From: Caldicoprobacterales bacterium
Lineage (GTDB): Bacteria; Bacillota; Clostridia; Caldicoprobacterales; UBA3941
Length of the DNA: 64,000 nucleotides
Assembly: GCA_050949255.1 (NCBI GenBank)
Contig: JBMNFJ010000015.1
Span: forward strand, 30,646 to 94,645
Direction: 5' to 3'
The position numbers and the translations under genes are program-made. Below are positions 53,361 to 61,199 of this stretch, in pieces. The notes below the pieces were generated by a model. That model was not told the origin of the DNA. It searched no databases and worked only from the letters and a program-made list of their open reading frames with translations. Position 1 is the stretch's first letter. Every line of letters begins with the position of its first letter.

Positions 53361-53397
53361 CATAAAAAATTGGCTGCAAAAGGGCTTGCAGCCAATT
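53361..53397 (-). terminator. Rho-independent terminator after the serpin gene
   Basis: 12-bp stem AATTGGCTGCAA / TTGCAGCCAATT followed on the minus strand by TTTTTAT. Confidence 0.8.
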
Positions 53398-53475
53398 GAC
53401 CTGTTGAAAAGTTTACTCATTTTTTCTTGAGATTATCTATTTCCCGTACCAAGCTATTTAACGGGTTGTATCCGT

Positions 53476-54834
53476 CTACTTGGCAGGGTTCTCGCAGACC
53501 CCCACGAACAGGAGGGCTCCGTTTTGTGACGTGATGCCGTAGATAAAGGGTCGGTCCAGAATCATTTCGGCCCGGTCCTCCGGGAGAGCAGCTCCACAGT
53601 AGTCTATCTGGGTAAAGGCGGAAGCCTCAACCCCGTCCTCATCTATGGATATATGGGTATCCTGCCTTATATCGGTTATAAAGGCCATGTGATCTGCGAT
53701 ACCTGAAAAATCAGCATCCCTCTCAAAAGCCGAGTTAACACCAAGGTCCCTGATCACGTCTAGAAGCTTAAGGCTGGTACCGAATTTGAACTTGGGTACC
53801 TTCCATACCACCTCTCCGTAAAACTCCTCCCCGCCTTCGAAGGCTTCCCGCATCTGCTCCGGCGATGAAAGGAGGTCATAGGGGGTAATGCCCTCGTCGG
53901 GCAGTATAAAGATCATCCTTCCTGCATTCTTAAGCCCCAAAGATGACCTGGTAAAACCGTCCCCACGTGCAAAGCCTGCGGAGCCGAAGGTCTGATTCAT
54001 AAATTCGGTCTTTACCTCATCACCGTTTGAAAGATGGAAAACATCAAAGGCGGTCTTATCCTTATTAAACCTGTCAATCCATTGGTCATAGAAGTAGATG
54101 GTATTGATGATGCTGAGGATCTGATCCCTGTCAAATTCAAAGGATGGATTCAAGGTGCCATTGGTATTGTCGAAGACCCATTTGGTCATGGCCTTCTCGG
54201 TGGTATCTGCATCGGCAAAGTCCACACTATGGGAGGATGCATAGAAATTCTCCGCAGCGTTTTTCACAAAACTCTTCTTAAACTCGATGGGCTCTCCATT
54301 CATGTCATCATCAAGCCACAGGGAATTGGCTATCTTCAATTTTCCAATTTCGTTATCGGTATATAACAGGCGGTATAGATTCCCGCTTTGGATGGACAGG
54401 GTTTCACCGTCGGCCACCCCCAACAGGGATAAGAGCTCCCTTTGGGTGTCCCCCTCCGCGCCTGAGGCAGCCAGGGCCAGGGCATAGTAGAGGGATAAGG
54501 GGGAGTAGTTTATATTATCGCCCCTGTTTTCAAAAATCCGGACAGAGGTTTTATATGCAAAATCCTTTATAGCCGCCTCAAAGGCCTCATCCACGGGGTT
54601 TTCATCCCGGACCTCCCATGCCCCGTCTGTATCCTCAAAAGCAAGGGCTTTGGGGTAAATCACATCCATGATCGGCTCTGTGCCGCCACCAGAACCTCTT
54701 CCTGAAAAAATTACCTGCCATATAGAGGTAAGCTGACCTATGCCCAGCACCAGTACCAGGCAGGCGGCAACTATGCCCCAAATCCTCCATGGTTTGATTC
54801 TCTTTTTCAGCTTGACTGTTCGTGCTTCATCCAC
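53476..54834 (-). CDS. Membrane-anchored serpin-family protein
   Basis: N-terminal TM WRIWGIVAACLVLVLGIGQL, then serpin features (NYSPLSLYYALALAASGAEGDTQREL; hinge-like DEDGVEASAFT; ILDRPFIYGI). GTG 54834 as drawn; see the frameshift finding. Confidence 0.8.
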   Translation of the reverse strand: MDEARTVKLKKRIKPWRIWGIVAACLVLVLGIGQLTSIWQVIFSGRGSGGGTEPIMDVIYPKALAFEDTDGAWEVRDENPVDEAFEAAIKDFAYKTSVRIFENRGDNINYSPLSLYYALALAASGAEGDTQRELLSLLGVADGETLSIQSGNLYRLLYTDNEIGKLKIANSLWLDDDMNGEPIEFKKSFVKNAAENFYASSHSVDFADADTTEKAMTKWVFDNTNGTLNPSFEFDRDQILSIINTIYFYDQWIDRFNKDKTAFDVFHLSNGDEVKTEFMNQTFGSAGFARGDGFTRSSLGLKNAGRMIFILPDEGITPYDLLSSPEQMREAFEGGEEFYGEVVWKVPKFKFGTSLKLLDVIRDLGVNSAFERDADFSGIADHMAFITDIRQDTHISIDEDGVEASAFTQIDYCGAALPEDRAEMILDRPFIYGITSQNGALLFVGVCENPAK

Positions 54835-54882
54835 TAACTCATCATCTACTTCTGTAATGGCATCAAAGAGTCCTCTTCCCCT

Positions 54883-55440
54883 TCATAGCCAAATACCCTC
54901 CTTTTCCAGTTCTATCCTGAGGCTCTGCCTTAGGCGGTACATCCGTCCCGCCAGCTTGTTGGGTGTAGTACCCCATTCCCTGGCAAGGGCATTTAAGGTT
55001 TCACAGAACCAATATCTGCGGAGGAACAGTACCCTGTCCCCTTGAGACAGGGAGCGAAGCCAATTGTTTAAAACTTTGGTTATCTCCCTGGATTGGATTT
55101 CCCCTTCCACGTCCTCCCGTGAAGGAGCGCACTGGGAAAGCTCCGATAACAGTACTTCCGTCCCCCCAAACCTCTTTTGGGCATGGTTTTTGTTCCAGCG
55201 GTTGATGGACAGATTGCGCACAATCCGGCCCAAGTAGGCTGCCAGCGAATTGGGCCGCTTGGGCGGTATGGACTGCCAGGCTTTGTTGTATGTATCGTTG
55301 ACGCATTCTTCGCTGTCCTGCGGGCTGCTTAATATGTTTATGGCGATGGAATAGCACAGTCCGCCATATTTCGCCTGGGTCTCCTTTATCGCACCCTCAT
55401 CCCTGGCCCAGTAGAGGTCCAGAATTTTTGAATCCTCCAT
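54883..55440 (-). CDS. ECF-type sigma-70 family RNA polymerase sigma factor
   Basis: ILDLYWARDEGAI..ECVNDTYNKAW (region 2) and RVLFLRRYWFCETLNALAREWGTTPNKLAGRMYRLRQSL (region 4). AAGGGGGA RBS before ATG 55440. Confidence 0.85.
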   Translation of the reverse strand: MEDSKILDLYWARDEGAIKETQAKYGGLCYSIAINILSSPQDSEECVNDTYNKAWQSIPPKRPNSLAAYLGRIVRNLSINRWNKNHAQKRFGGTEVLLSELSQCAPSREDVEGEIQSREITKVLNNWLRSLSQGDRVLFLRRYWFCETLNALAREWGTTPNKLAGRMYRLRQSLRIELEKEGIWL

Positions 55441-55540
55441 AGATATCCCCCTTACCCTATGAATTAAGGCCTTCATATATATAGACAGGAAAAAGATAAG
55501 GATATTCGCCTTTGTTTTCTATTATATCTGTAAATTTCCA

Positions 55541-55599: not shown

Positions 55600-57747
55600 T
55601 TAGATTGTATTAAAGGACAGGATAGCCTTAAACAGGTCTCCATCCACCTTTATTTCAAAGTCCCCACCGCAGGATTGGGTGAAGTTTTGAGCAATAGCCA
55701 GGCCCAATCCGGAACCTTCGCTGGTGCGCGCCTTGTCTCCCCTAAAGAAGCGCTCGGTTATCTCCTCTTCACTGAAATTCATCTCGTAATTTGCAGTGTT
55801 CTTTATTTCTACAAGGGCTCTGCCTTCTTCAACGGTCAGGTCCACATACACCCTGGTCCCTATCAGGGAATATTTCAGGGCATTTGAAAACAGGTTTGCA
55901 AATACCCGGTAGAGCTTGTTGCCATCGCTTGTTATAAACACCGGCTCATCCGGAAGGTTTAGCCTTAATCCAAGCCCGGACTCCTGAATCCTGTCCTCCA
56001 GATCGGCCAGGGTCTGCTGTATGAGCTTCACCAGATCCAGGGTTTTCATGTCAAATTCCATCTGCCCGCTGGCTACCTTGGACAGGTCGAAGAGGTCCTG
56101 GATGAGGAACTTAAGTCTATCGGACTTTTGTGCCAGTATCCCTATATAATCCCTTACATGCTCCGGCAATCCGCCTTCCTTTGATAACAGGTCCACATAG
56201 CTGATGATGGAGGTAAGGGGGGTCTTCAGGTCATGGGATATGTTGGTAATAAGCTCCACCTTCATCCTCTCGCTCTTAATGCTGTTTTCCACAGCCGTAG
56301 CCATACCCTCCTGAATCGTGTTCAGATTGTCTTCCAAAACCTTCAGGTCCGAACCGGGGCTAAGCTCCAATTTGGTCCCTATATCACCCTTCCTTATGCG
56401 CTCCGTCTGTTCTATTATCCTGTCTATGTCCACCAGATTATTGGCAAAGCGCCGGGTATATAGATAGAATAGGAAAATACCAACACAGACCAGAATAAGC
56501 GCCATAACAAAGAATACTATTTCACTTTCAGCGGCAGCAAGGAGAACAAGCAGAATGGAGAAGAAGATAAACAGGGCCTCAAGTATTATCATTATGCGTA
56601 TTCTTATGAGTTGGGCCTTGTGAAAGGGCCGCACCCCCTCCAAGTGCCAATACCATTTCACCAGTTTCCATGTCATGTTTTTCGTTAGGATGTATTCACG
56701 GTTTGCGCGAATATCTATAAATGCAAAATATGCCAGCCACAGGAGCACACTTGCAACATAGAAGAGCTTTAAAAACCCTGCCCAATAGTGTCCCTCAACA
56801 AGATACATTGAGATTATCCATACCACAAGAATGAACAGGATTTTAAACTCCAGTAACACCTTACCCAGAACTCCTCCTATGGTCCTTTCCAATTCCCTTC
56901 CTAGATTTCGATTCAGGAGGGAAAATATAAAGAGTCCTAGTTCGGCGGTAAAGGCCAGCAGCAGGGCTAAGTACAAATACTTCTGCTTAGTCAGATTCTT
57001 TTCCATGGAATATAGGATGCTGTACTCATATGGAACTGTTACCAGGTCCTTTTTTACCGCTAAAAGTATTTGGCATCCCCGGATGTCGGGAACATCCTGG
57101 TGGATTCCTTTTACATCCCAATCTCCTCCGATATAGTTGTAGAATTGTGTACTCCAGTATCCGTTATTGCTTTCGTATATATCCAGGGGTTTTCCGGCAT
57201 TTTGTACCAGAAATCTTTGCCCGTCATAGTGGATATAAAAGTCATAGCCCTTTGGCAGGGTCAGGGGTTGGTCATTGGTAATCCCAAGGTCGGTAGCGGA
57301 GTTGGTCAGAGAAACATCAGTCTTTGGATTTGCGGCGTAGTAGATTAGATTCTGGCCTTCAGCCCTGAATGACCTAAGCTGCCAGTCCACATAGTCGCGA
57401 AAGTCCCTCTCCGCCTGAATCCTTTCCATGGCTTTACGCTCATTCTCATCCATATTCTCATCATAGTCATAGGTATAATATGAATCGCCGACTTTGGCTA
57501 AATCCCCTTCATAGTCGTAATCCCAGTCATGAGTTATATACTCGGCCAGGAAGTGAAACTTTTCCCCCAAAAAATCCTTGAACTGCTGGGTATCCCTATA
57601 ATCCAGACTTATAATATCCGTACCCAGATAGTTGACCTGATACCTTCCCCTGGAGGCCATGGTCAGGCAGAAAACCACTATGTATATACCGATAAAGAGA
57701 TACAGCCATATCCTAAAGGGTCTAGATCTTTTCAATCCGATATCCAA
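55600..57747 (-). CDS. Sensor histidine kinase with a large extracytoplasmic N-terminal domain and a multi-helix membrane block
   Basis: ISHDLKTPLTSI H-box and a GSGLGLAIA G2 box. About 230 aa follow the first TM before further helices. Overlaps the response regulator stop by 26 nt. Confidence 0.88.
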   Translation of the reverse strand: MDIGLKRSRPFRIWLYLFIGIYIVVFCLTMASRGRYQVNYLGTDIISLDYRDTQQFKDFLGEKFHFLAEYITHDWDYDYEGDLAKVGDSYYTYDYDENMDENERKAMERIQAERDFRDYVDWQLRSFRAEGQNLIYYAANPKTDVSLTNSATDLGITNDQPLTLPKGYDFYIHYDGQRFLVQNAGKPLDIYESNNGYWSTQFYNYIGGDWDVKGIHQDVPDIRGCQILLAVKKDLVTVPYEYSILYSMEKNLTKQKYLYLALLLAFTAELGLFIFSLLNRNLGRELERTIGGVLGKVLLEFKILFILVVWIISMYLVEGHYWAGFLKLFYVASVLLWLAYFAFIDIRANREYILTKNMTWKLVKWYWHLEGVRPFHKAQLIRIRIMIILEALFIFFSILLVLLAAAESEIVFFVMALILVCVGIFLFYLYTRRFANNLVDIDRIIEQTERIRKGDIGTKLELSPGSDLKVLEDNLNTIQEGMATAVENSIKSERMKVELITNISHDLKTPLTSIISYVDLLSKEGGLPEHVRDYIGILAQKSDRLKFLIQDLFDLSKVASGQMEFDMKTLDLVKLIQQTLADLEDRIQESGLGLRLNLPDEPVFITSDGNKLYRVFANLFSNALKYSLIGTRVYVDLTVEEGRALVEIKNTANYEMNFSEEEITERFFRGDKARTSEGSGLGLAIAQNFTQSCGGDFEIKVDGDLFKAILSFNTI

Positions 57748-58420: not shown

Positions 58421-59031
58421 ACGTCTCACCTTCCCTAATAACTAAACAATAGAGTAAAACACTGAACCCTAGGGATATTATAGCTGAATATCCTTACGAA
58501 AAGATAGCCCTGTTTCTTACGGAATTCTTAATCTGTCTTAGGTAGGGGCCAAAAGGCGGCTGGAGCAGAATCCTGGTATACGGATCATGACAGGGCTACC
58601 TGGGCGGGTACCGGTACCGGTGTTCCATTTACAGCAGCTTATCTTATGTGAAAAGAAGATCCCATTGCAGATTTAGTGGAAGATATGGCTGCTGAGGAAA
58701 AAGCCTGAGCCAACATATGAGCATTTGATTGATCTAGCGGATGATCCGGATGTAATAGATCCGCTGCGATGGCTGAAAGAAAGAGAATTATCCACTTCCA
58801 ACGTTCCCGTAAGATTTTAATAAGCTTTATACCGGAAGGATAGTACGAAACATTATTAGCTGATAGGCCTGCTGATGCAGGCCTATTTAACACATTATTT
58901 TACCAGTTAAATATTACAATATATCAAACAAAATTTTTCCATTCTTTAATAAAATTAGTATTATCAAATCGGTCTATAGTGCATAGACTAAAAACATGAG
59001 GTCGATCCAATATAGACCAAGGAGGCTTGTC

Positions 59032-59394
59032 ATGAAAGAATATAAACTTACGGAAAGTGAAGAAAAGTTCGCAAATATCATTTGGTTGAATGAACCTATT
59101 GCTTCAGGTGATCTGGTAAAGCTATCTGAAAAGGAAATGAACTGGAAGAAGTCTACCACTTATACTGTCCTGAAGAAACTATGCGAAAAAGGCATTTTCA
59201 AAAATGAAAATGCTGTTGTTTCATCTTTAATCACTAAGAATGAATACTATGCAAAGCAAAGCATCCTCTTCGTTGAAGATACTTTTGGAGGGTCTTTACC
59301 TAGATTCTTAACAGCATTTATAGGAGAAAAAAAATTAAGTAAAAAGCAAGCAGAAGAGTTGAAAAGATTGATTGATAAGCACAAGGAGGTTTAG
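59032..59394 (+). CDS. BlaI/MecI/CopY-family transcriptional repressor
   Basis: LTESEEKFANIIW..TTYTVLKKLCEKGI winged-helix pattern. AAGGAGG RBS before ATG 59032. Confidence 0.88.
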   Translation: MKEYKLTESEEKFANIIWLNEPIASGDLVKLSEKEMNWKKSTTYTVLKKLCEKGIFKNENAVVSSLITKNEYYAKQSILFVEDTFGGSLPRFLTAFIGEKKLSKKQAEELKRLIDKHKEV

Positions 59395-59396
59395 TA

Positions 59397-61199
59397 ATGA
59401 GTATCTTATTCATTTCCGTTTTGAATATGAGCATTACGGCAAGCTATGTAATCCTATTTGTAATAGTTATCAGATTGATGCTTAAAAAAGCTCCAAAGGT
59501 CATCTCTTATGCCTTATGGAGTGTGGCTGCTTTTCGTCTTCTAATTCCATTCTCATTTAAAAGTGTCTTTAGTCTTATGCCACGTAAAACGAATGCTGTT
59601 CCACTCCCCAATGGGGTTATCTATCAGCAAAGTTCGCAGATTGATAATGGTATAAGAGTACTCGACTCTTTCACAAGTGAGTCACTTCATGCACAACATA
59701 CCAGTGCCAGTTTAAGTCCCTTGCAGATTTTTATAGAATATGGGGCATACATCTGGATGTTAGGCATAATAGTATTGTTTGTTTACAGTTTCGTATCTAT
59801 CTTGGTCTTAAGAAGACGGCTTAAGGCTGCACAATTAATAGAAAGGAACATTTTTGAAGCCAGGAATTTGCAAACACCATTTGTGCTTGGACTAATAAGA
59901 CCTAAGATATATTTGCCGGTTGGACTGAAGGATGATGAAAGGGATTATATTTTGCTGCATGAACAGATCCATATTCGCCGAAAAGACCATATCATTAAGA
60001 TGTTAGCTTTCTTTGTATTGTGTTTCCATTGGTTTAATCCTCTTGTATGGGTTGCGTATTTAATTATGAGCATGGATATGGAGCTTTCATGTGATGAAAG
60101 AGTACTGAAAGAAATGGATGAAAAAATTAAAAAGCCTTATGCTAACTCATTGTTATCCCTTGCTGCCGGAAGACATATTCTAAACGGAAGTCCAATTGCA
60201 TTTAGCGAGAGCAAGGTAAAGTGGAGAATTAAAAATGTGTTGAATTATAAGAAGCCTGCTTTTTGGGTTACTCTGGTCTCCGTATTATTTGCCCTTGCAA
60301 TAGGAATAGGACTGTTAGCAAACCCACAGGATAAGGGTTACAATGAGATCATTAATAGCGATAATGGCCCTGGGGAAAGCATCCAGTTAGCAACAACTCA
60401 AGGCGACAGTCATGAGTTAACGGGAAGGGTTGCTAAGGATAAGGGGAATATAATTGAAAGTTTTTCGGAAATAGATAAGTATATTAAAGATTATACTTTT
60501 GATGTTTCATATGAGGAAGATTTGGAATTGGGTCAACGAGTTTATAGTTTTCATGGCAAATATGACTTAAATGGAGATGGCGAAGCAGATAGCATAAATG
60601 CAGTATTAATAACGGATAATGAGGACGGTTCCTATATTGAGGTTAATGGTATGAAAGTGGAGTTAAACCTCTACAATCCAACAGGTGCGGTAAAAATTAT
60701 TGATTTGGATAGCGAGGATGGTTATACCGAAGTTGCTATTTTTGACGATGGGGCAAGTGGAGATCCTGCGTTTACATTTATTCGCTATGATGGTACAAAG
60801 CTATATACCTTAGGAACAATAGATCGGCATGCATTAATGGATGGAAAGGGAAAATTCATATCAAGGTTTCATTTGGCCAATAACTTCAAACCTCAATTCT
60901 TTTCAGCATTGGGAGAATTTAAGAACAATGAATACCTTATAACGAATTATGATGTGGAACAATATATAGGGGAGACTTATGAAGTCTATGGAACTGGCTT
61001 TTTTGTACCCTTAGACTTTTATCCAGAAGACTATTTTGAACATGTTGTATGGGACTCAGAAAATCTGAGAGAATTTAAAGCAACGAAAATAAAGCTACTA
61101 GGTATTCATATAAGCCCGGATAATCCGACTCTAAACTGGTTTTATGTTGAACTGCCGGATGGTGAGAAAGGACTCTTGTATTTCTGGATAGGAGATTGA
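59397..61199 (+). CDS. BlaR1-like M56 signal-transducing metallopeptidase with a non-PBP C-terminal domain
   Basis: Multi-TM N-terminus with LLHEQIHIRRKDH (HExxH). The C-terminal ~300 aa lack SxxK/KTG and contain DLNGDGEAD-type Asp-rich loops. Confidence 0.85.
   Translation: MSILFISVLNMSITASYVILFVIVIRLMLKKAPKVISYALWSVAAFRLLIPFSFKSVFSLMPRKTNAVPLPNGVIYQQSSQIDNGIRVLDSFTSESLHAQHTSASLSPLQIFIEYGAYIWMLGIIVLFVYSFVSILVLRRRLKAAQLIERNIFEARNLQTPFVLGLIRPKIYLPVGLKDDERDYILLHEQIHIRRKDHIIKMLAFFVLCFHWFNPLVWVAYLIMSMDMELSCDERVLKEMDEKIKKPYANSLLSLAAGRHILNGSPIAFSESKVKWRIKNVLNYKKPAFWVTLVSVLFALAIGIGLLANPQDKGYNEIINSDNGPGESIQLATTQGDSHELTGRVAKDKGNIIESFSEIDKYIKDYTFDVSYEEDLELGQRVYSFHGKYDLNGDGEADSINAVLITDNEDGSYIEVNGMKVELNLYNPTGAVKIIDLDSEDGYTEVAIFDDGASGDPAFTFIRYDGTKLYTLGTIDRHALMDGKGKFISRFHLANNFKPQFFSALGEFKNNEYLITNYDVEQYIGETYEVYGTGFFVPLDFYPEDYFEHVVWDSENLREFKATKIKLLGIHISPDNPTLNWFYVELPDGEKGLLYFWIGD

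What the first reader, a model, noticed from the sequence alone, without database searches (positions are those of the whole stretch)
53476..55440. ECF sigma factor directly followed by a membrane-anchored serpin in the position usually held by an anti-sigma factor
The sigma gene (regions 2 and 4 recognisable) ends at TGA 54885-54883. The next ORF encodes a short cytoplasmic segment with the motif LFDAITEVDDELVDEA...KLKKRIKPWR, one TM helix, and an extracytoplasmic domain of about 400 aa.

That domain has serpin hallmarks: NYSPLSLYYALALAASGA, a hinge-like GVEASAFT, and ILDRPFIYGI after the putative reactive-centre loop. The small residues at the predicted hinge (A-S-A) are compatible with an inhibitory serpin.

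Gene order, tight spacing and topology are those of a sigma / anti-sigma pair. I do not know of a described serpin domain acting as the sensory module of an anti-sigma factor.

Hypothesis: engagement or cleavage of the reactive loop by an extracellular protease is transduced into sigma release, giving a protease-sensing ECF switch. The simpler alternative is that the serpin is just a sigma-dependent, membrane-tethered protease inhibitor.
Basis: inference. Interest (0 to 1): 0.65.

Follow-up and report, generated by a model that had tools for sequence, protein, structure and literature searches.

The report
Serpin-tipped anti-sigma partner of ECF sigma
A small two-gene unit in a Clostridia bacterium from biogas digesters pairs a stress-type sigma factor with a membrane protein that probably holds the sigma in check from inside the cell and carries a protease-trapping serpin outside, which would link protease attack to gene expression; in this particular window the serpin gene has a one-base frameshift at its start.

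Summary
The sigma (55440-54883, minus strand) is a distant ECF-type sigma. The next ORF is a full-length serpin (Pfam 2.4e-64) behind one TM helix and the LFDAITEVDDELVDEA segment. In this window that segment has no in-frame start: a 1-nt insertion (G, 54873) puts the ATG (54886-54884) out of frame. Every other copy examined at this position (six DNA contigs, four DNA runs, four RNA runs) is intact, with a 4-nt ATGA overlap.

Comparative data support a sigma/anti-sigma-type pairing. In 76 of 79 sigma-family loci the next gene starts with the same 16-residue acidic amphipathic motif, a basic stretch and a W..W...AAC TM helix, followed by unrelated ectodomains (serpin in 14). Among serpin relatives, an intact motif goes with an upstream sigma (9/10); decayed or absent motifs do not (1/41). 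A conserved ECF-type promoter-like motif precedes the sigma genes. Metatranscriptome contigs span both genes.

Binding to the sigma and protease sensing are untested. My favoured model is loss of surface serpin, then intramembrane proteolysis, then sigma release and resynthesis. No paper found links serpins to anti-sigma factors. Verdict: new variant of a known kind; interest 0.7.

The parts
55482..55507 (-). ECF-type promoter-like motif GAATAT-N15-GTCTA upstream of the sigma gene
   Evidence: It is the only match in the window. The same two boxes (GAATAT or GCAAC, about 16 nt, then C/TGTCTA) are conserved upstream of sigma genes in 43 of 77 loci. The -35-like box differs between the two main sigma clades while the -10-like box is shared. 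Function is inferred.
55466..55486 (-). Conserved block GTCTATATATATGAAGGCCTT (-10-like box plus a conserved downstream element)
   Evidence: Gibbs sampling and an anchored alignment give the consensus cGTCTaTATAGGTGAAgG. It is not coding, because its distance to the sigma ATG is not in frame across loci. The predicted 5' UTR shows no significant RNA fold (z = +0.9) and there is no Rfam hit. The role of the downstream part is unknown.
55498..55500 (-). 5' boundary of the sigma-serpin RNA in metatranscriptomes
   Evidence: RNA contigs end at 55498 (X25) and 55500 (X26, X27). In X26 adapter sequence follows directly. None of 8 runs extends further upstream. This lies 12-18 nt upstream of the -10-like box and is unexplained.
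54883..55440 (-). ECF-type sigma factor gene (185 aa, stop included)
   Evidence: Pfam Sigma70_r2 and TIGR02937 hits. The profile matches SigW, SigE, SigL and CnrH in the PDB. There are 1,580 homologues, nearly all about 185 aa.
54863..54886 (-). Original start of the serpin gene, now an out-of-frame 7-codon ORF; inserted G at 54873
   Evidence: All other copies examined lack the insertion.
54823..54870 (-). Cytoplasmic motif LFDAITEVDDELVDEA (putative sigma-binding helix)
   Evidence: The motif is conserved in 76 of 79 sigma-linked partners. Column identity within serpin-type partners is 0.78. It is an acidic amphipathic helix: hydrophobic moment 0.61 against 0.26 for shuffles, net charge -5. 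AF2 pLDDT is below 50 when the protein is modelled alone.
54721..54789 (-). Single TM helix (P0001 residues 33-55) with W..W...AAC
   Evidence: AF2 predicts a helix at 32-59. W33, W36, A40, A41 and C42 are at least 90% conserved in 84 diverse family members.
54589..54720 (-). Extracytoplasmic tether: a variable Gly/Ser stretch, then conserved PIMDVIYPKALAFED...RDENPVD (tengpin-like clamp region)
   Evidence: Column identity is 0.22 for residues 56-70 and 0.70 for residues 71-99. pLDDT is 70-86. Alignment to native tengpin starts at ENPV. The tengpin clamp peptide is ANLMDRIKANPVS (PMC1905895).
53485..54573 (-). Serpin domain
   Evidence: Pfam Serpin 2.4e-64. Conserpin 1.4e-37 and tengpin 9e-31 by sequence. 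AF2 body pLDDT is 80-95, and Foldseek finds native tengpin 2pee_A at rank 2 with target-normalised TM-score (TMt) 0.84.
53581..53634 (-). Hinge and reactive-centre loop (G418 = P15 to P435 = P3'); predicted P1-P1' is A432-A433 (53592-53587)
   Evidence: Alignment to conserpin carrying the alpha-1-antitrypsin loop. Hinge column identity is 0.97. pLDDT is below 50 for residues 421-434. Expressed alleles with A432E and L434P occur in two RNA runs.
53368..53397 (-). Intrinsic terminator after the serpin gene
   Evidence: 13-bp stem followed by a T run. RNA contigs end at 53420 or 53345.

Best explanation
The locus is a self-contained, bicistronic ECF sigma/anti-sigma-type module.

Shown:
- The two genes are transcribed on one RNA.
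- In all intact copies they are translationally coupled by an ATGA overlap.
- The partner has about 32 cytoplasmic residues, one TM helix and an extracytoplasmic serpin with an inhibitory-type hinge.

Inferred, well supported: the 16-residue acidic amphipathic helix at the N terminus, together with the conserved W..W...AAC TM segment, is the module that binds and sequesters the sigma at the membrane. It would be a short, non-canonical anti-sigma domain that this sigma family uses with many different ectodomains.

Inferred, weaker: the serpin is the sensor.
1. When a secreted serine protease attacks the reactive loop, the serpin is consumed (covalent complex, stressed-to-relaxed transition).
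2. This displaces the tengpin-like N-terminal clamp, which here is the tether to the membrane, and exposes it to site-1 cleavage.
3. A site-2 protease then cuts in the TM at the conserved Ala-Ala|Cys, as RseP cuts RseA, leaving an -AA end for Clp proteases.
4. The sigma is released and transcribes its own operon from the conserved ECF-type promoter.

In this window the serpin gene is frameshifted at codon 5/6. If the base is real, this strain makes no normal anti-sigma/serpin.
For: Domain identities.

Pairing:
- 67 of 79 sigma-family loci have a 4-nt overlap with the next gene, and 76 of 79 encode the motif-basic-TM module.
- The ectodomains are unrelated: Serpin 14, Big_14 3, DUF4179 2, and DUF4367, RsgI_M, PepSY and a beta-propeller 1 each; the rest have no Pfam hit.
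- These fall into many BLAST clusters, with serpins scattered over the sigma tree.
- DUF4179 and RsgI_M are Pfam domains known from anti-sigma factors: the ECF reclassification paper describes DUF4179-containing anti-sigma factors (PMC7826278), and Pfam describes RsgI_M as the 'Anti-sigma factor RsgI-like central domain'.

Motif-sigma coupling among serpin relatives: intact motif with sigma 9, intact without sigma 1; decayed or absent with sigma 1, without sigma 40; p = 3e-8.
- Orphan P0051 has no sigma and a decayed motif, yet is 61% identical to the query overall.
- Lipoprotein-type and signal-anchor versions of the same serpin clade lack a sigma.

Family size: 8,968 clusters at 50% identity match the module, always at residues 1 to about 55.

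Promoter: a conserved ECF-type motif precedes the sigma genes, with a clade-specific -35-like box, and occurs once in the window.

Co-transcription: one 2,078-nt RNA contig spans 55498-53420, and three more RNA contigs cross the gene junction.

Regulated-proteolysis hints:
- A40, A41 and C42 are at least 90% conserved.
- RseA is cut by RseP between Ala108 and Cys109 (PMC10024687).

Clamp idea:
- Tengpin's N-terminal peptide holds the native state, and its site is taken by strand s1A after the transition (PMC1905895).
- The homologous NPV segment and tether are conserved here.

Inhibitory-type hinge: P17 E, P15 G, P14 V, P12 A, P10 A, P8 T, nearly invariant.
Against: - There is no direct evidence of sigma binding. 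The only complex-like prediction I could run (a single-sequence AF2 model of a read-through fusion) was uninformative, with mean pLDDT 44.
- The cytoplasmic part matches no known anti-sigma domain in Pfam or NCBIfam. It is far shorter than class I domains.
- Two serpin genes keep an intact motif without a sigma: C. boliviensis L087, where only a remnant of about 36 nt (12 codons) of the sigma 3' end is left, and L101.
- RCL cleavage alone would not detach the ectodomain, because the loop is near the C terminus. An extra site-1 step has to be assumed.
- RNA 5' ends in 3 runs lie at 55498-55500, upstream of the -10-like box. The transcripts seen do not start where the ECF-type promoter predicts.
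- The regulon outside this 64-kb window is unknown.
- No target protease is linked to the locus, and neighbouring genes differ between organisms.
Confidence: 0.55

Rival explanations
1. The serpin is only an effector. It is a membrane-tethered protease inhibitor whose expression depends on the sigma. The N-terminal motif does something other than inhibit the sigma, such as membrane targeting or assembly, or it acts as a positive co-factor of the sigma.
For: - Orphan copies with an intact motif exist (L087, L101).
- Closely related serpins work with a plain lipoprotein or signal anchor.
- No known anti-sigma domain is detected.
- The only promoter copy in the window drives the operon itself, so the serpin is at least an output.
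Against: - The motif is found in front of many unrelated ectodomains, and almost only directly after this sigma family.
- It decays in lineages that lost the sigma while the anchor and serpin stay conserved.
- A 4-nt overlap that keeps near 1:1 synthesis is typical of sigma/anti-sigma pairs (own knowledge).
- A targeting signal would not need a cognate sigma.
Confidence: 0.2
2. It is a sigma/anti-sigma pair, but the signal is not protease capture. The sigma is released by general envelope stress or by another ligand, and the serpin domain is a passive cargo or a non-inhibitory binding domain.
For: - The same module carries many other ectodomains, so the release mechanism may be generic.
- P9 is Phe, which is unusual for a hinge.
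- No protease gene is linked to the locus.
Against: - The hinge is nearly invariant (0.97), with small or hydrophobic residues at P14, P12, P10 and P8.
- The RCL is predicted to be exposed.
- Predicted P1 and P2' vary between near-identical strains (A432E, L434P) and between homologues, as expected for a loop that engages proteases.
- The nearest characterised relative, tengpin, is an active inhibitor (PMC1905895).
Confidence: 0.15
3. In this window the feature is a broken or mis-assembled copy. Either the extra G at 54873 is a consensus error and the gene is intact, or it is a real inactivating mutation that leaves the sigma without its partner.
For: - It is the only indel in 13.4 kb, in a cluster of three changes within 11 nt.
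- The variant is absent from every indexed run and contig.
Against: Reads of the window's own source were not available, so error and mutation cannot be told apart. This rival concerns only this copy, not the nature of the system.
Confidence: 0.9

Closest known systems
SigV/RsiV (Bacillus subtilis, C. difficile, E. faecalis) and SigP/RsiP (B. thuringiensis)
   Same: An ECF sigma co-transcribed with a single-pass anti-sigma. The ectodomain directly binds an external agent (lysozyme, beta-lactams). Binding licenses site-1 cleavage, followed by site-2 cleavage and sigma release (PMC6066255, PMC8844934). The operon is autoregulated (own knowledge).
   Different: RsiV and RsiP have a full cytoplasmic anti-sigma domain and DUF4179-type regions. 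Here the cytoplasmic part is about 32 aa with a 16-residue motif, and the ectodomain is a serpin. The output appears to be the sensor itself rather than separate resistance genes.
RseA/SigmaE with DegS and RseP (E. coli)
   Same: A membrane anti-sigma removed by two-step proteolysis. RseP cuts RseA between Ala108 and Cys109 (PMC10024687), and the partner family here has a near-invariant Ala-Ala-Cys in its TM helix.
   Different: The anti-sigma domains are not related. The signal for RseA is unfolded porin C termini sensed by DegS, not a property of the RseA ectodomain.
Short (class II) anti-sigma domains: CnrY/CnrH, NepR
   Same: A very short sigma-binding segment instead of a four-helix domain (own knowledge). 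CnrH is among the PDB relatives of this sigma.
   Different: There is no detectable sequence similarity. CnrY works with CnrX as a separate sensor. The fold of the motif on the sigma is untested here.
SigI/RsgI of Clostridium thermocellum
   Same: One conserved N-terminal sigma-binding module fused to many alternative extracellular sensor domains in Clostridia (PMC3990059, PMC10328401). One partner in my survey even carries RsgI_M.
   Different: The sigma family is different (SigI has a sigmaI-C domain) and so is the N-terminal module (RsgI_N). Those sensors are carbohydrate-binding modules, not protease inhibitors.
Tengpin (Thermoanaerobacter tengcongensis serpin) and other Group T bacterial serpins (siropins, miropin, B. 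longum serpin)
   Same: The closest solved natural relative (9e-31; native structure at Foldseek rank 2). It has an N-terminal extension with an NPV segment that clamps the metastable native state (PMC1905895). Membrane-anchored prokaryotic serpins are a recognised class (PMC8233489).
   Different: Tengpin has only 56 residues before the serpin domain and no reported sigma link. I did not test whether it has one. The serpin literature states that prokaryotes do not use serpins in regulatory networks (PMC8233489).
Serpin-enzyme-complex feedback in mammals (complex receptor raises alpha-1-antitrypsin synthesis)
   Same: The same logic: consumption of a suicide inhibitor feeds back on its synthesis (own knowledge, not checked here).
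   Different: The components are unrelated and separate in mammals. Here sensor, inhibitor and regulator would be one polypeptide plus a sigma.

Membership tests
Serpin superfamily (PF00079) | Full-length match to the serpin fold | tested here: met
   Pfam 2.4e-64 over model positions 2-370 of 370. AF2 body pLDDT 80-95. Foldseek top hits are all serpins, with native tengpin at TMt 0.84.
Serpin superfamily (PF00079) | Inhibitory-type hinge (P17 E, P15 G, small or uncharged residues at P14 and P12-P9) and an exposed reactive loop | tested here: met
   The sequence E-D-G-V-E-A-S-A-F-T aligns to the conserpin/alpha-1-antitrypsin hinge. The residues that point inward (P14 V, P12 A, P10 A, P8 T) are suitable. 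P9 Phe is atypical. The hinge is 0.97 conserved and the loop has pLDDT below 50.
Serpin superfamily (PF00079) | Forms covalent, SDS-stable complexes with a target protease | not testable with these tools
   Needs biochemistry.
ECF (group 4) sigma-70 factors | Only sigma-2 and sigma-4 regions, about 170-200 aa | tested here: met
   185 aa. TIGR02937 scores 54.7 bits against a cut-off of 42.9 over residues 30-189. SigW aligns over residues 7-178. Pfam detects only region 2 in the window protein and in most homologues, which may have kept the family out of the ECF classification pipeline that requires both Pfam hits (PMC7826278).
ECF (group 4) sigma-70 factors | Autoregulated promoter with an AAC-type -35 and a CGT-type -10 | tested here: inconclusive
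   A conserved GAATAT or GCAAC, about 16 nt, then C/TGTCTA lies upstream of the sigma genes. However, RNA 5' ends in metatranscriptomes lie at 55498-55500, upstream of the -10-like box.
ECF (group 4) sigma-70 factors | Assignment to a named ECF group | not testable with these tools
   ECF Hub models are not available. All equivalog or subfamily NCBIfam models score far below their cut-offs.
Membrane anti-sigma factors | Gene directly downstream of, and co-transcribed with, the sigma gene | tested here: met
   4-nt overlap in 67 of 79 loci and in all intact copies of this locus. RNA contigs span the junction. In the window itself the start is out of frame.
Membrane anti-sigma factors | Recognisable cytoplasmic anti-sigma domain (class I four-helix or zinc-binding type, RskA, FecR, RsgI_N and so on) | tested here: not met
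   No Pfam or NCBIfam hit in residues 1-60 of this protein or of 160 family members. Only a 16-residue motif within about 32 cytoplasmic residues.
Membrane anti-sigma factors | Single TM helix with N-in topology and a variable extracytoplasmic sensor domain | tested here: met
   A basic stretch precedes the TM. AF2 predicts a helix at 32-59. Ectodomains are variable across the family.
Membrane anti-sigma factors | Binds and inhibits its sigma; released by regulated proteolysis | not testable with these tools
   The evidence is indirect only: motif-sigma co-occurrence (p = 3e-8) and the conserved Ala-Ala-Cys in the TM. The fusion-model attempt failed.

The most novel reading that the evidence does not exclude
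The serpin's stressed-to-relaxed conformational change is itself the transmembrane signal. Capture of a protease (or loop cleavage) displaces the tengpin-like clamp that doubles as the membrane tether. That licenses site-1 and then site-2 (Ala-Ala|Cys) cleavage and frees the sigma. A single-use inhibitor would thereby drive its own resynthesis in proportion to its consumption. This would be a one-protein protease sensor, inhibitor and regulator, and one member of a very large, undescribed family (about 9,000 clusters at 50% identity) of short-motif anti-sigma factors in Clostridia.
Probability: 0.3. Interest if true: 0.85.

Novelty: new variant of a known kind. Interest (0 to 1): 0.7.

Why it matters
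Serpins are textbook regulators of proteolytic cascades in animals. A recent superfamily analysis states that prokaryotes do not use them in regulatory networks (PMC8233489). A serpin wired to a sigma factor would be the first bacterial case of a serpin inside a signalling circuit.

It would also give a directly testable model for how bacteria in protease-rich communities (digesters, guts) sense and buffer foreign proteases.

The work exposes a large partner-module family (8,968 clusters at 50% identity) with a short, unannotated sigma-linked N-terminal motif and mostly unknown ectodomains. That is a pool of candidate sensors, and of compact orthogonal sigma/anti-sigma pairs for synthetic biology.

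Practically, current annotation calls these proteins only 'serpin family protein' and misses the regulatory half.

Tried and rejected
1. AF2 of a sigma-partner complex. A typed read-through fusion ran without an alignment and gave mean pLDDT 44, which is uninformative. No natural sigma-partner fusion was found among the longer homologues.
2. Word-indexed search with the N-terminal module profile returned only 17 short fragments. These fragments were reused as the profile for the exhaustive search.
3. Coding explanation for the conserved GTGAAGG block (an N-terminal extension of the sigma). Rejected, because its distance to the sigma ATG is not in frame across loci.
4. RNA-structure explanation for that block. 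There is no significant fold and no Rfam family anywhere in the window.
5. Search for further promoter copies as regulon members. None in the window. A loose regex over the loci gave only noise.
6. Literature searches: serpin + anti-sigma, serpin + extracytoplasmic function, prokaryotic serpins + sigma factor, and serpin + membrane-anchored + Firmicutes + sigma. Nothing relevant. The supplement of the ECF classification paper is not held.
7. Stop-codon read-through giving a sigma-serpin fusion protein. Considered because both ORFs share a frame in the window. Rejected as a designed feature, because all other copies have the two genes in different frames with an ATGA overlap.
Full report
**What is in the window.** On the minus strand, a 185-aa sigma gene (55440-54883) follows a two-component system. 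It is preceded by a good RBS and followed by a long ORF that ends at 53476.
- The sigma hits Pfam Sigma70_r2 (5e-10) and the ECF superfamily model TIGR02937 above its cut-off. No equivalog model comes near its cut-off.
- A profile of 20 homologues finds SigW (1.2e-8, full length), then SigE, SigL, SigH and CnrH in the PDB. It is a distant ECF-type sigma.
- The downstream ORF matches the Pfam Serpin model end to end (2.4e-64). Its best solved relatives are conserpin (1.4e-37) and the bacterial serpin tengpin (9e-31).

**The flaw in this copy.** The two ORFs lie in one frame, separated only by the sigma stop codon.
- No ATG, GTG or TTG precedes the LFDAITEV motif. The first candidate start (GTG 54834) lies inside it.
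- The ATG overlapping the stop (54886-54884) is in another frame and terminates after seven codons.
- The database holds a 469-aa protein, P0001, identical from Leu6 (LFDAIT) onward but starting MKGKRLFDAIT.
- P0001 is encoded on six contigs from digester metagenomes that share the window's gene order and are 99.6-99.7% identical.
- Against these, the window has one extra G (54873) flanked by two private substitutions (54878, 54868). This is the only indel in 13.4 kb.
- None of the 20 indexed runs that hold the stretch holds the variant words. Four DNA runs and four RNA runs all show the intact form.
- Without the source reads I cannot tell a consensus error from a real mutation. Either way, the biology below is that of the intact allele.

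**Is the partner an anti-sigma factor?** I asked what lies downstream of relatives of the sigma. A profile scan of one genome per species returned 80 loci (43-67% identity; Oscillospiraceae, Lachnospiraceae and other Clostridia).
- In 67 of 79 evaluable loci the next gene overlaps the sigma stop by 4 nt.
- In 76 it encodes the same N-terminal module: (E)K-L-[FYL]-[DNE]-[AS]-[ILM]-[TGS]-x-[VI]-x-[DE]-[DE]-[LYF]-[IV]-E-E-A from about residue 5, then a basic stretch, W-[KR]-[KR]-W, and a TM helix from about residue 36.
- Beyond the membrane the proteins are unrelated: Serpin in 14, Big_14 in 3, DUF4179 in 2, and DUF4367, RsgI_M, PepSY and a beta-propeller once each. The rest have no Pfam hit. They form many BLAST clusters, and serpins are scattered over a neighbour-joining tree of the sigmas, which is a rough tree.
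- This is the pattern of a sigma family with a dedicated partner module and swappable sensor domains, as in SigI/RsgI.
- An exhaustive profile search finds the module in 8,968 clusters at 50% identity (344 at E <= 1e-10). It is always at residues 1 to about 55, and W33, W36, A40, A41 and C42 are at least 90% conserved. Pfam recognises almost none of the attached domains.

**The reciprocal test used serpin relatives.**
- Tissierella and Sedimentibacter genomes have the sigma with the 4-nt overlap, in otherwise unrelated neighbourhoods.
- In a metagenome scan, serpins with an intact motif have the sigma directly upstream in 9 of 10 distinct cases. Serpins with a decayed motif, a lipoprotein signal or a plain signal anchor have it in 1 of 41 (Fisher p = 3e-8).
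- That one case is L160, a more distant sigma with a divergent version of the motif, DIINMFDHVDPETLAET.
- P0051, seen on at least 130 contigs, has no sigma and a degraded motif (MNEKKEFDAVGDSPGKFVNEGK), yet its anchor and serpin remain about 60% identical to the query.
- Two cases keep an intact motif without a sigma. In Clostridium boliviensis a remnant of about 36 nt (12 codons) of the sigma 3' end shows a recent deletion. The other case is L101.
- Decay of the motif after loss of the sigma is what one expects if the motif exists to bind the sigma.

**The motif's properties fit.** It is as conserved as the serpin core (0.78 against 0.74 column identity). It forms a strongly amphipathic, acidic helix. 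AF2 models it as disordered when the protein is modelled alone. It matches no known anti-sigma domain, and about 32 cytoplasmic residues are too few for a class I domain. In size it resembles class II domains such as CnrY (own knowledge).

**The serpin.**
- Aligned to conserpin carrying the alpha-1-antitrypsin loop, G418 is P15, V419 is P14, A421/S422/A423/F424 are P12-P9, A432 is P1 and A433 is P1', with a three-residue insertion on the prime side.
- The inward-pointing hinge positions are small or hydrophobic. The hinge is almost invariant across 44 homologues.
- The loop is predicted to be exposed and the body is native-like, with native tengpin second in Foldseek.
- Two metatranscriptomes carry an allele with A432E and L434P in an otherwise at least 99% identical gene. 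Homologues have A, S, C, G or E at P1. Such variation suggests changing protease targets.
- Between the TM and the serpin there is a variable Gly/Ser stretch, then a conserved tether (PIMDVIYPKALAFED...RDENPVD) that is modelled with fair confidence.
- The tether's NPV part aligns with the tengpin N-terminal peptide. That peptide clamps the native state, and its binding site is occupied by strand s1A after the stressed-to-relaxed transition (PMC1905895).

**Expression signals.**
- A conserved motif lies upstream of the sigma genes. In the window it reads GAATAT-N15-GTCTA (55507-55482). It consists of a -35-like box (GAATAT in one sigma clade, GCAAC in the other), about 16 nt, then C/TGTCTA, followed by a conserved TATA(A/G)GTGAAGG block.
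- It resembles ECF promoters and occurs once in the window.
- A strong terminator follows the serpin gene.
- In biogas metatranscriptomes one 2,078-nt contig covers 55498-53420 and three other contigs cross the gene junction. The pair is therefore one transcript.
- The 5' boundary is at 55498-55500 in three runs, once with adapter directly attached. No run of eight extends further.
- That is 12-18 nt upstream of the -10-like box, so the RNAs seen do not start where the ECF-type promoter predicts. Either a second, basal start or a processing site exists, or the block is not a promoter. This stays unexplained. The UTR has no significant fold.

**Mechanism.** I favour regulated proteolysis of a serpin-tipped anti-sigma with the operon as its own target.
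- Shown: domain identities, topology, co-transcription, the conserved pairing, and the motif-sigma dependence.
- Inferred: that the motif binds the sigma.
- More weakly inferred: that serpin consumption is the trigger.
- The serpin loop lies near the C terminus, so its cleavage cannot shed the ectodomain. A site-1 cut in the tether is needed. Clamp displacement during the serpin transition offers a way to couple the two.
- The near-invariant Ala-Ala-Cys in the TM mirrors the RseP cut in RseA, between Ala108 and Cys109 (PMC10024687). That cut leaves an Ala-Ala end recognised by ClpXP (own knowledge).
- The rivals are an effector-only serpin, a generic stress trigger, and a defective copy in this window. 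They are listed with their evidence in the Rival explanations section.

**Novelty.** Membrane-anchored prokaryotic serpins are known as a class (PMC8233489). ECF sigmas with ligand-binding anti-sigma factors are well known (RsiV, RsiP; PMC6066255, PMC8844934). I found no paper that links a serpin to a sigma or anti-sigma factor. Databases name these proteins only 'serpin family protein'. I therefore rate it a new variant of a known kind. It rests on strong comparative evidence for the pairing and on no direct evidence yet for the sensing step.

Noticed in passing
window 54863-54886 (-): The three window-specific changes create GAGG-ACT-CTT-TGA. This has the same layout as the RF2 (prfB) +1 programmed frameshift site: a Shine-Dalgarno-like element, 3 nt, then CUU UGA (own knowledge). 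A +1 slip would restore the frame and give MKGKRTL-DAITEV..., with the conserved Leu-Phe replaced by Thr-Leu. It may be coincidence.
   Followed up: partly
window 55466-55481 (-); loci L007-L086 upstream of the sigma genes: A conserved element lies just downstream of the -10-like box: TATA(A/G)GTGAA(A/G)G(G/C)CTT. It often ends in a palindrome (AAGGCCTT, AAAGCTTT). It is not coding, has no significant RNA fold and has no Rfam hit. It could be an operator or an initial-transcribed-region signal.
   Followed up: partly
window 55498-55500 (-): There is a sharp RNA 5' boundary in three independent metatranscriptomes, inside the spacer of the putative ECF-type promoter. A TATAAT hexamer lies at 55526-55521, but its expected start (about 55514) does not match either.
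   Followed up: partly
window 53584-53592 (-): Expressed alleles in two RNA runs change predicted P1 Ala432 to Glu and P2' Leu434 to Pro, in a gene that is otherwise at least 99% identical. Several of the few polymorphisms in 2 kb cluster in the reactive loop.
   Followed up: partly
L160 1671-3688: A more distant sigma (183 aa) overlaps by 4 nt a 489-aa serpin protein with a divergent N-terminal motif (DIINMFDHVDPETLAET) and a longer cytoplasmic part. It is a second, remote sigma-serpin lineage.
   Followed up: partly
L087 4860-5003 (Clostridium boliviensis): The sigma gene is deleted except for about 36 nt (12 codons) of its 3' end (…GREGILL*). A sigma-70-like promoter (TTGATT-N17-TATAAT) lies upstream of the orphan serpin gene.
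   Followed up: partly
L111, L113, L118, L120, L131, L144-L155 and others: Serpins related to this one (about 45-62% identical) carry lipoprotein-type signals (…SGC, …LSAC) or plain signal anchors instead of the motif, and have no sigma upstream. Anchor types have been exchanged within the clade.
   Followed up: partly
window 56161-56401 (-), histidine kinase gene: About 21 window-specific substitutions form a dense tract relative to six otherwise near-identical contigs. It looks like a recombination patch.
   Followed up: no
window 58996-61199 (+): A BlaI/MecI-type repressor (132 aa) is followed by a 600-aa Peptidase_M56 (BlaR1-like) protein. This is another membrane protease-based signalling pair, near the locus but not conserved with it.
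   Followed up: no
protein family found: The N-terminal motif-TM module defines a very large family (8,968 clusters at 50% identity). Its ectodomains are almost all unknown to Pfam, and the module itself has no Pfam or NCBIfam model.
   Followed up: partly
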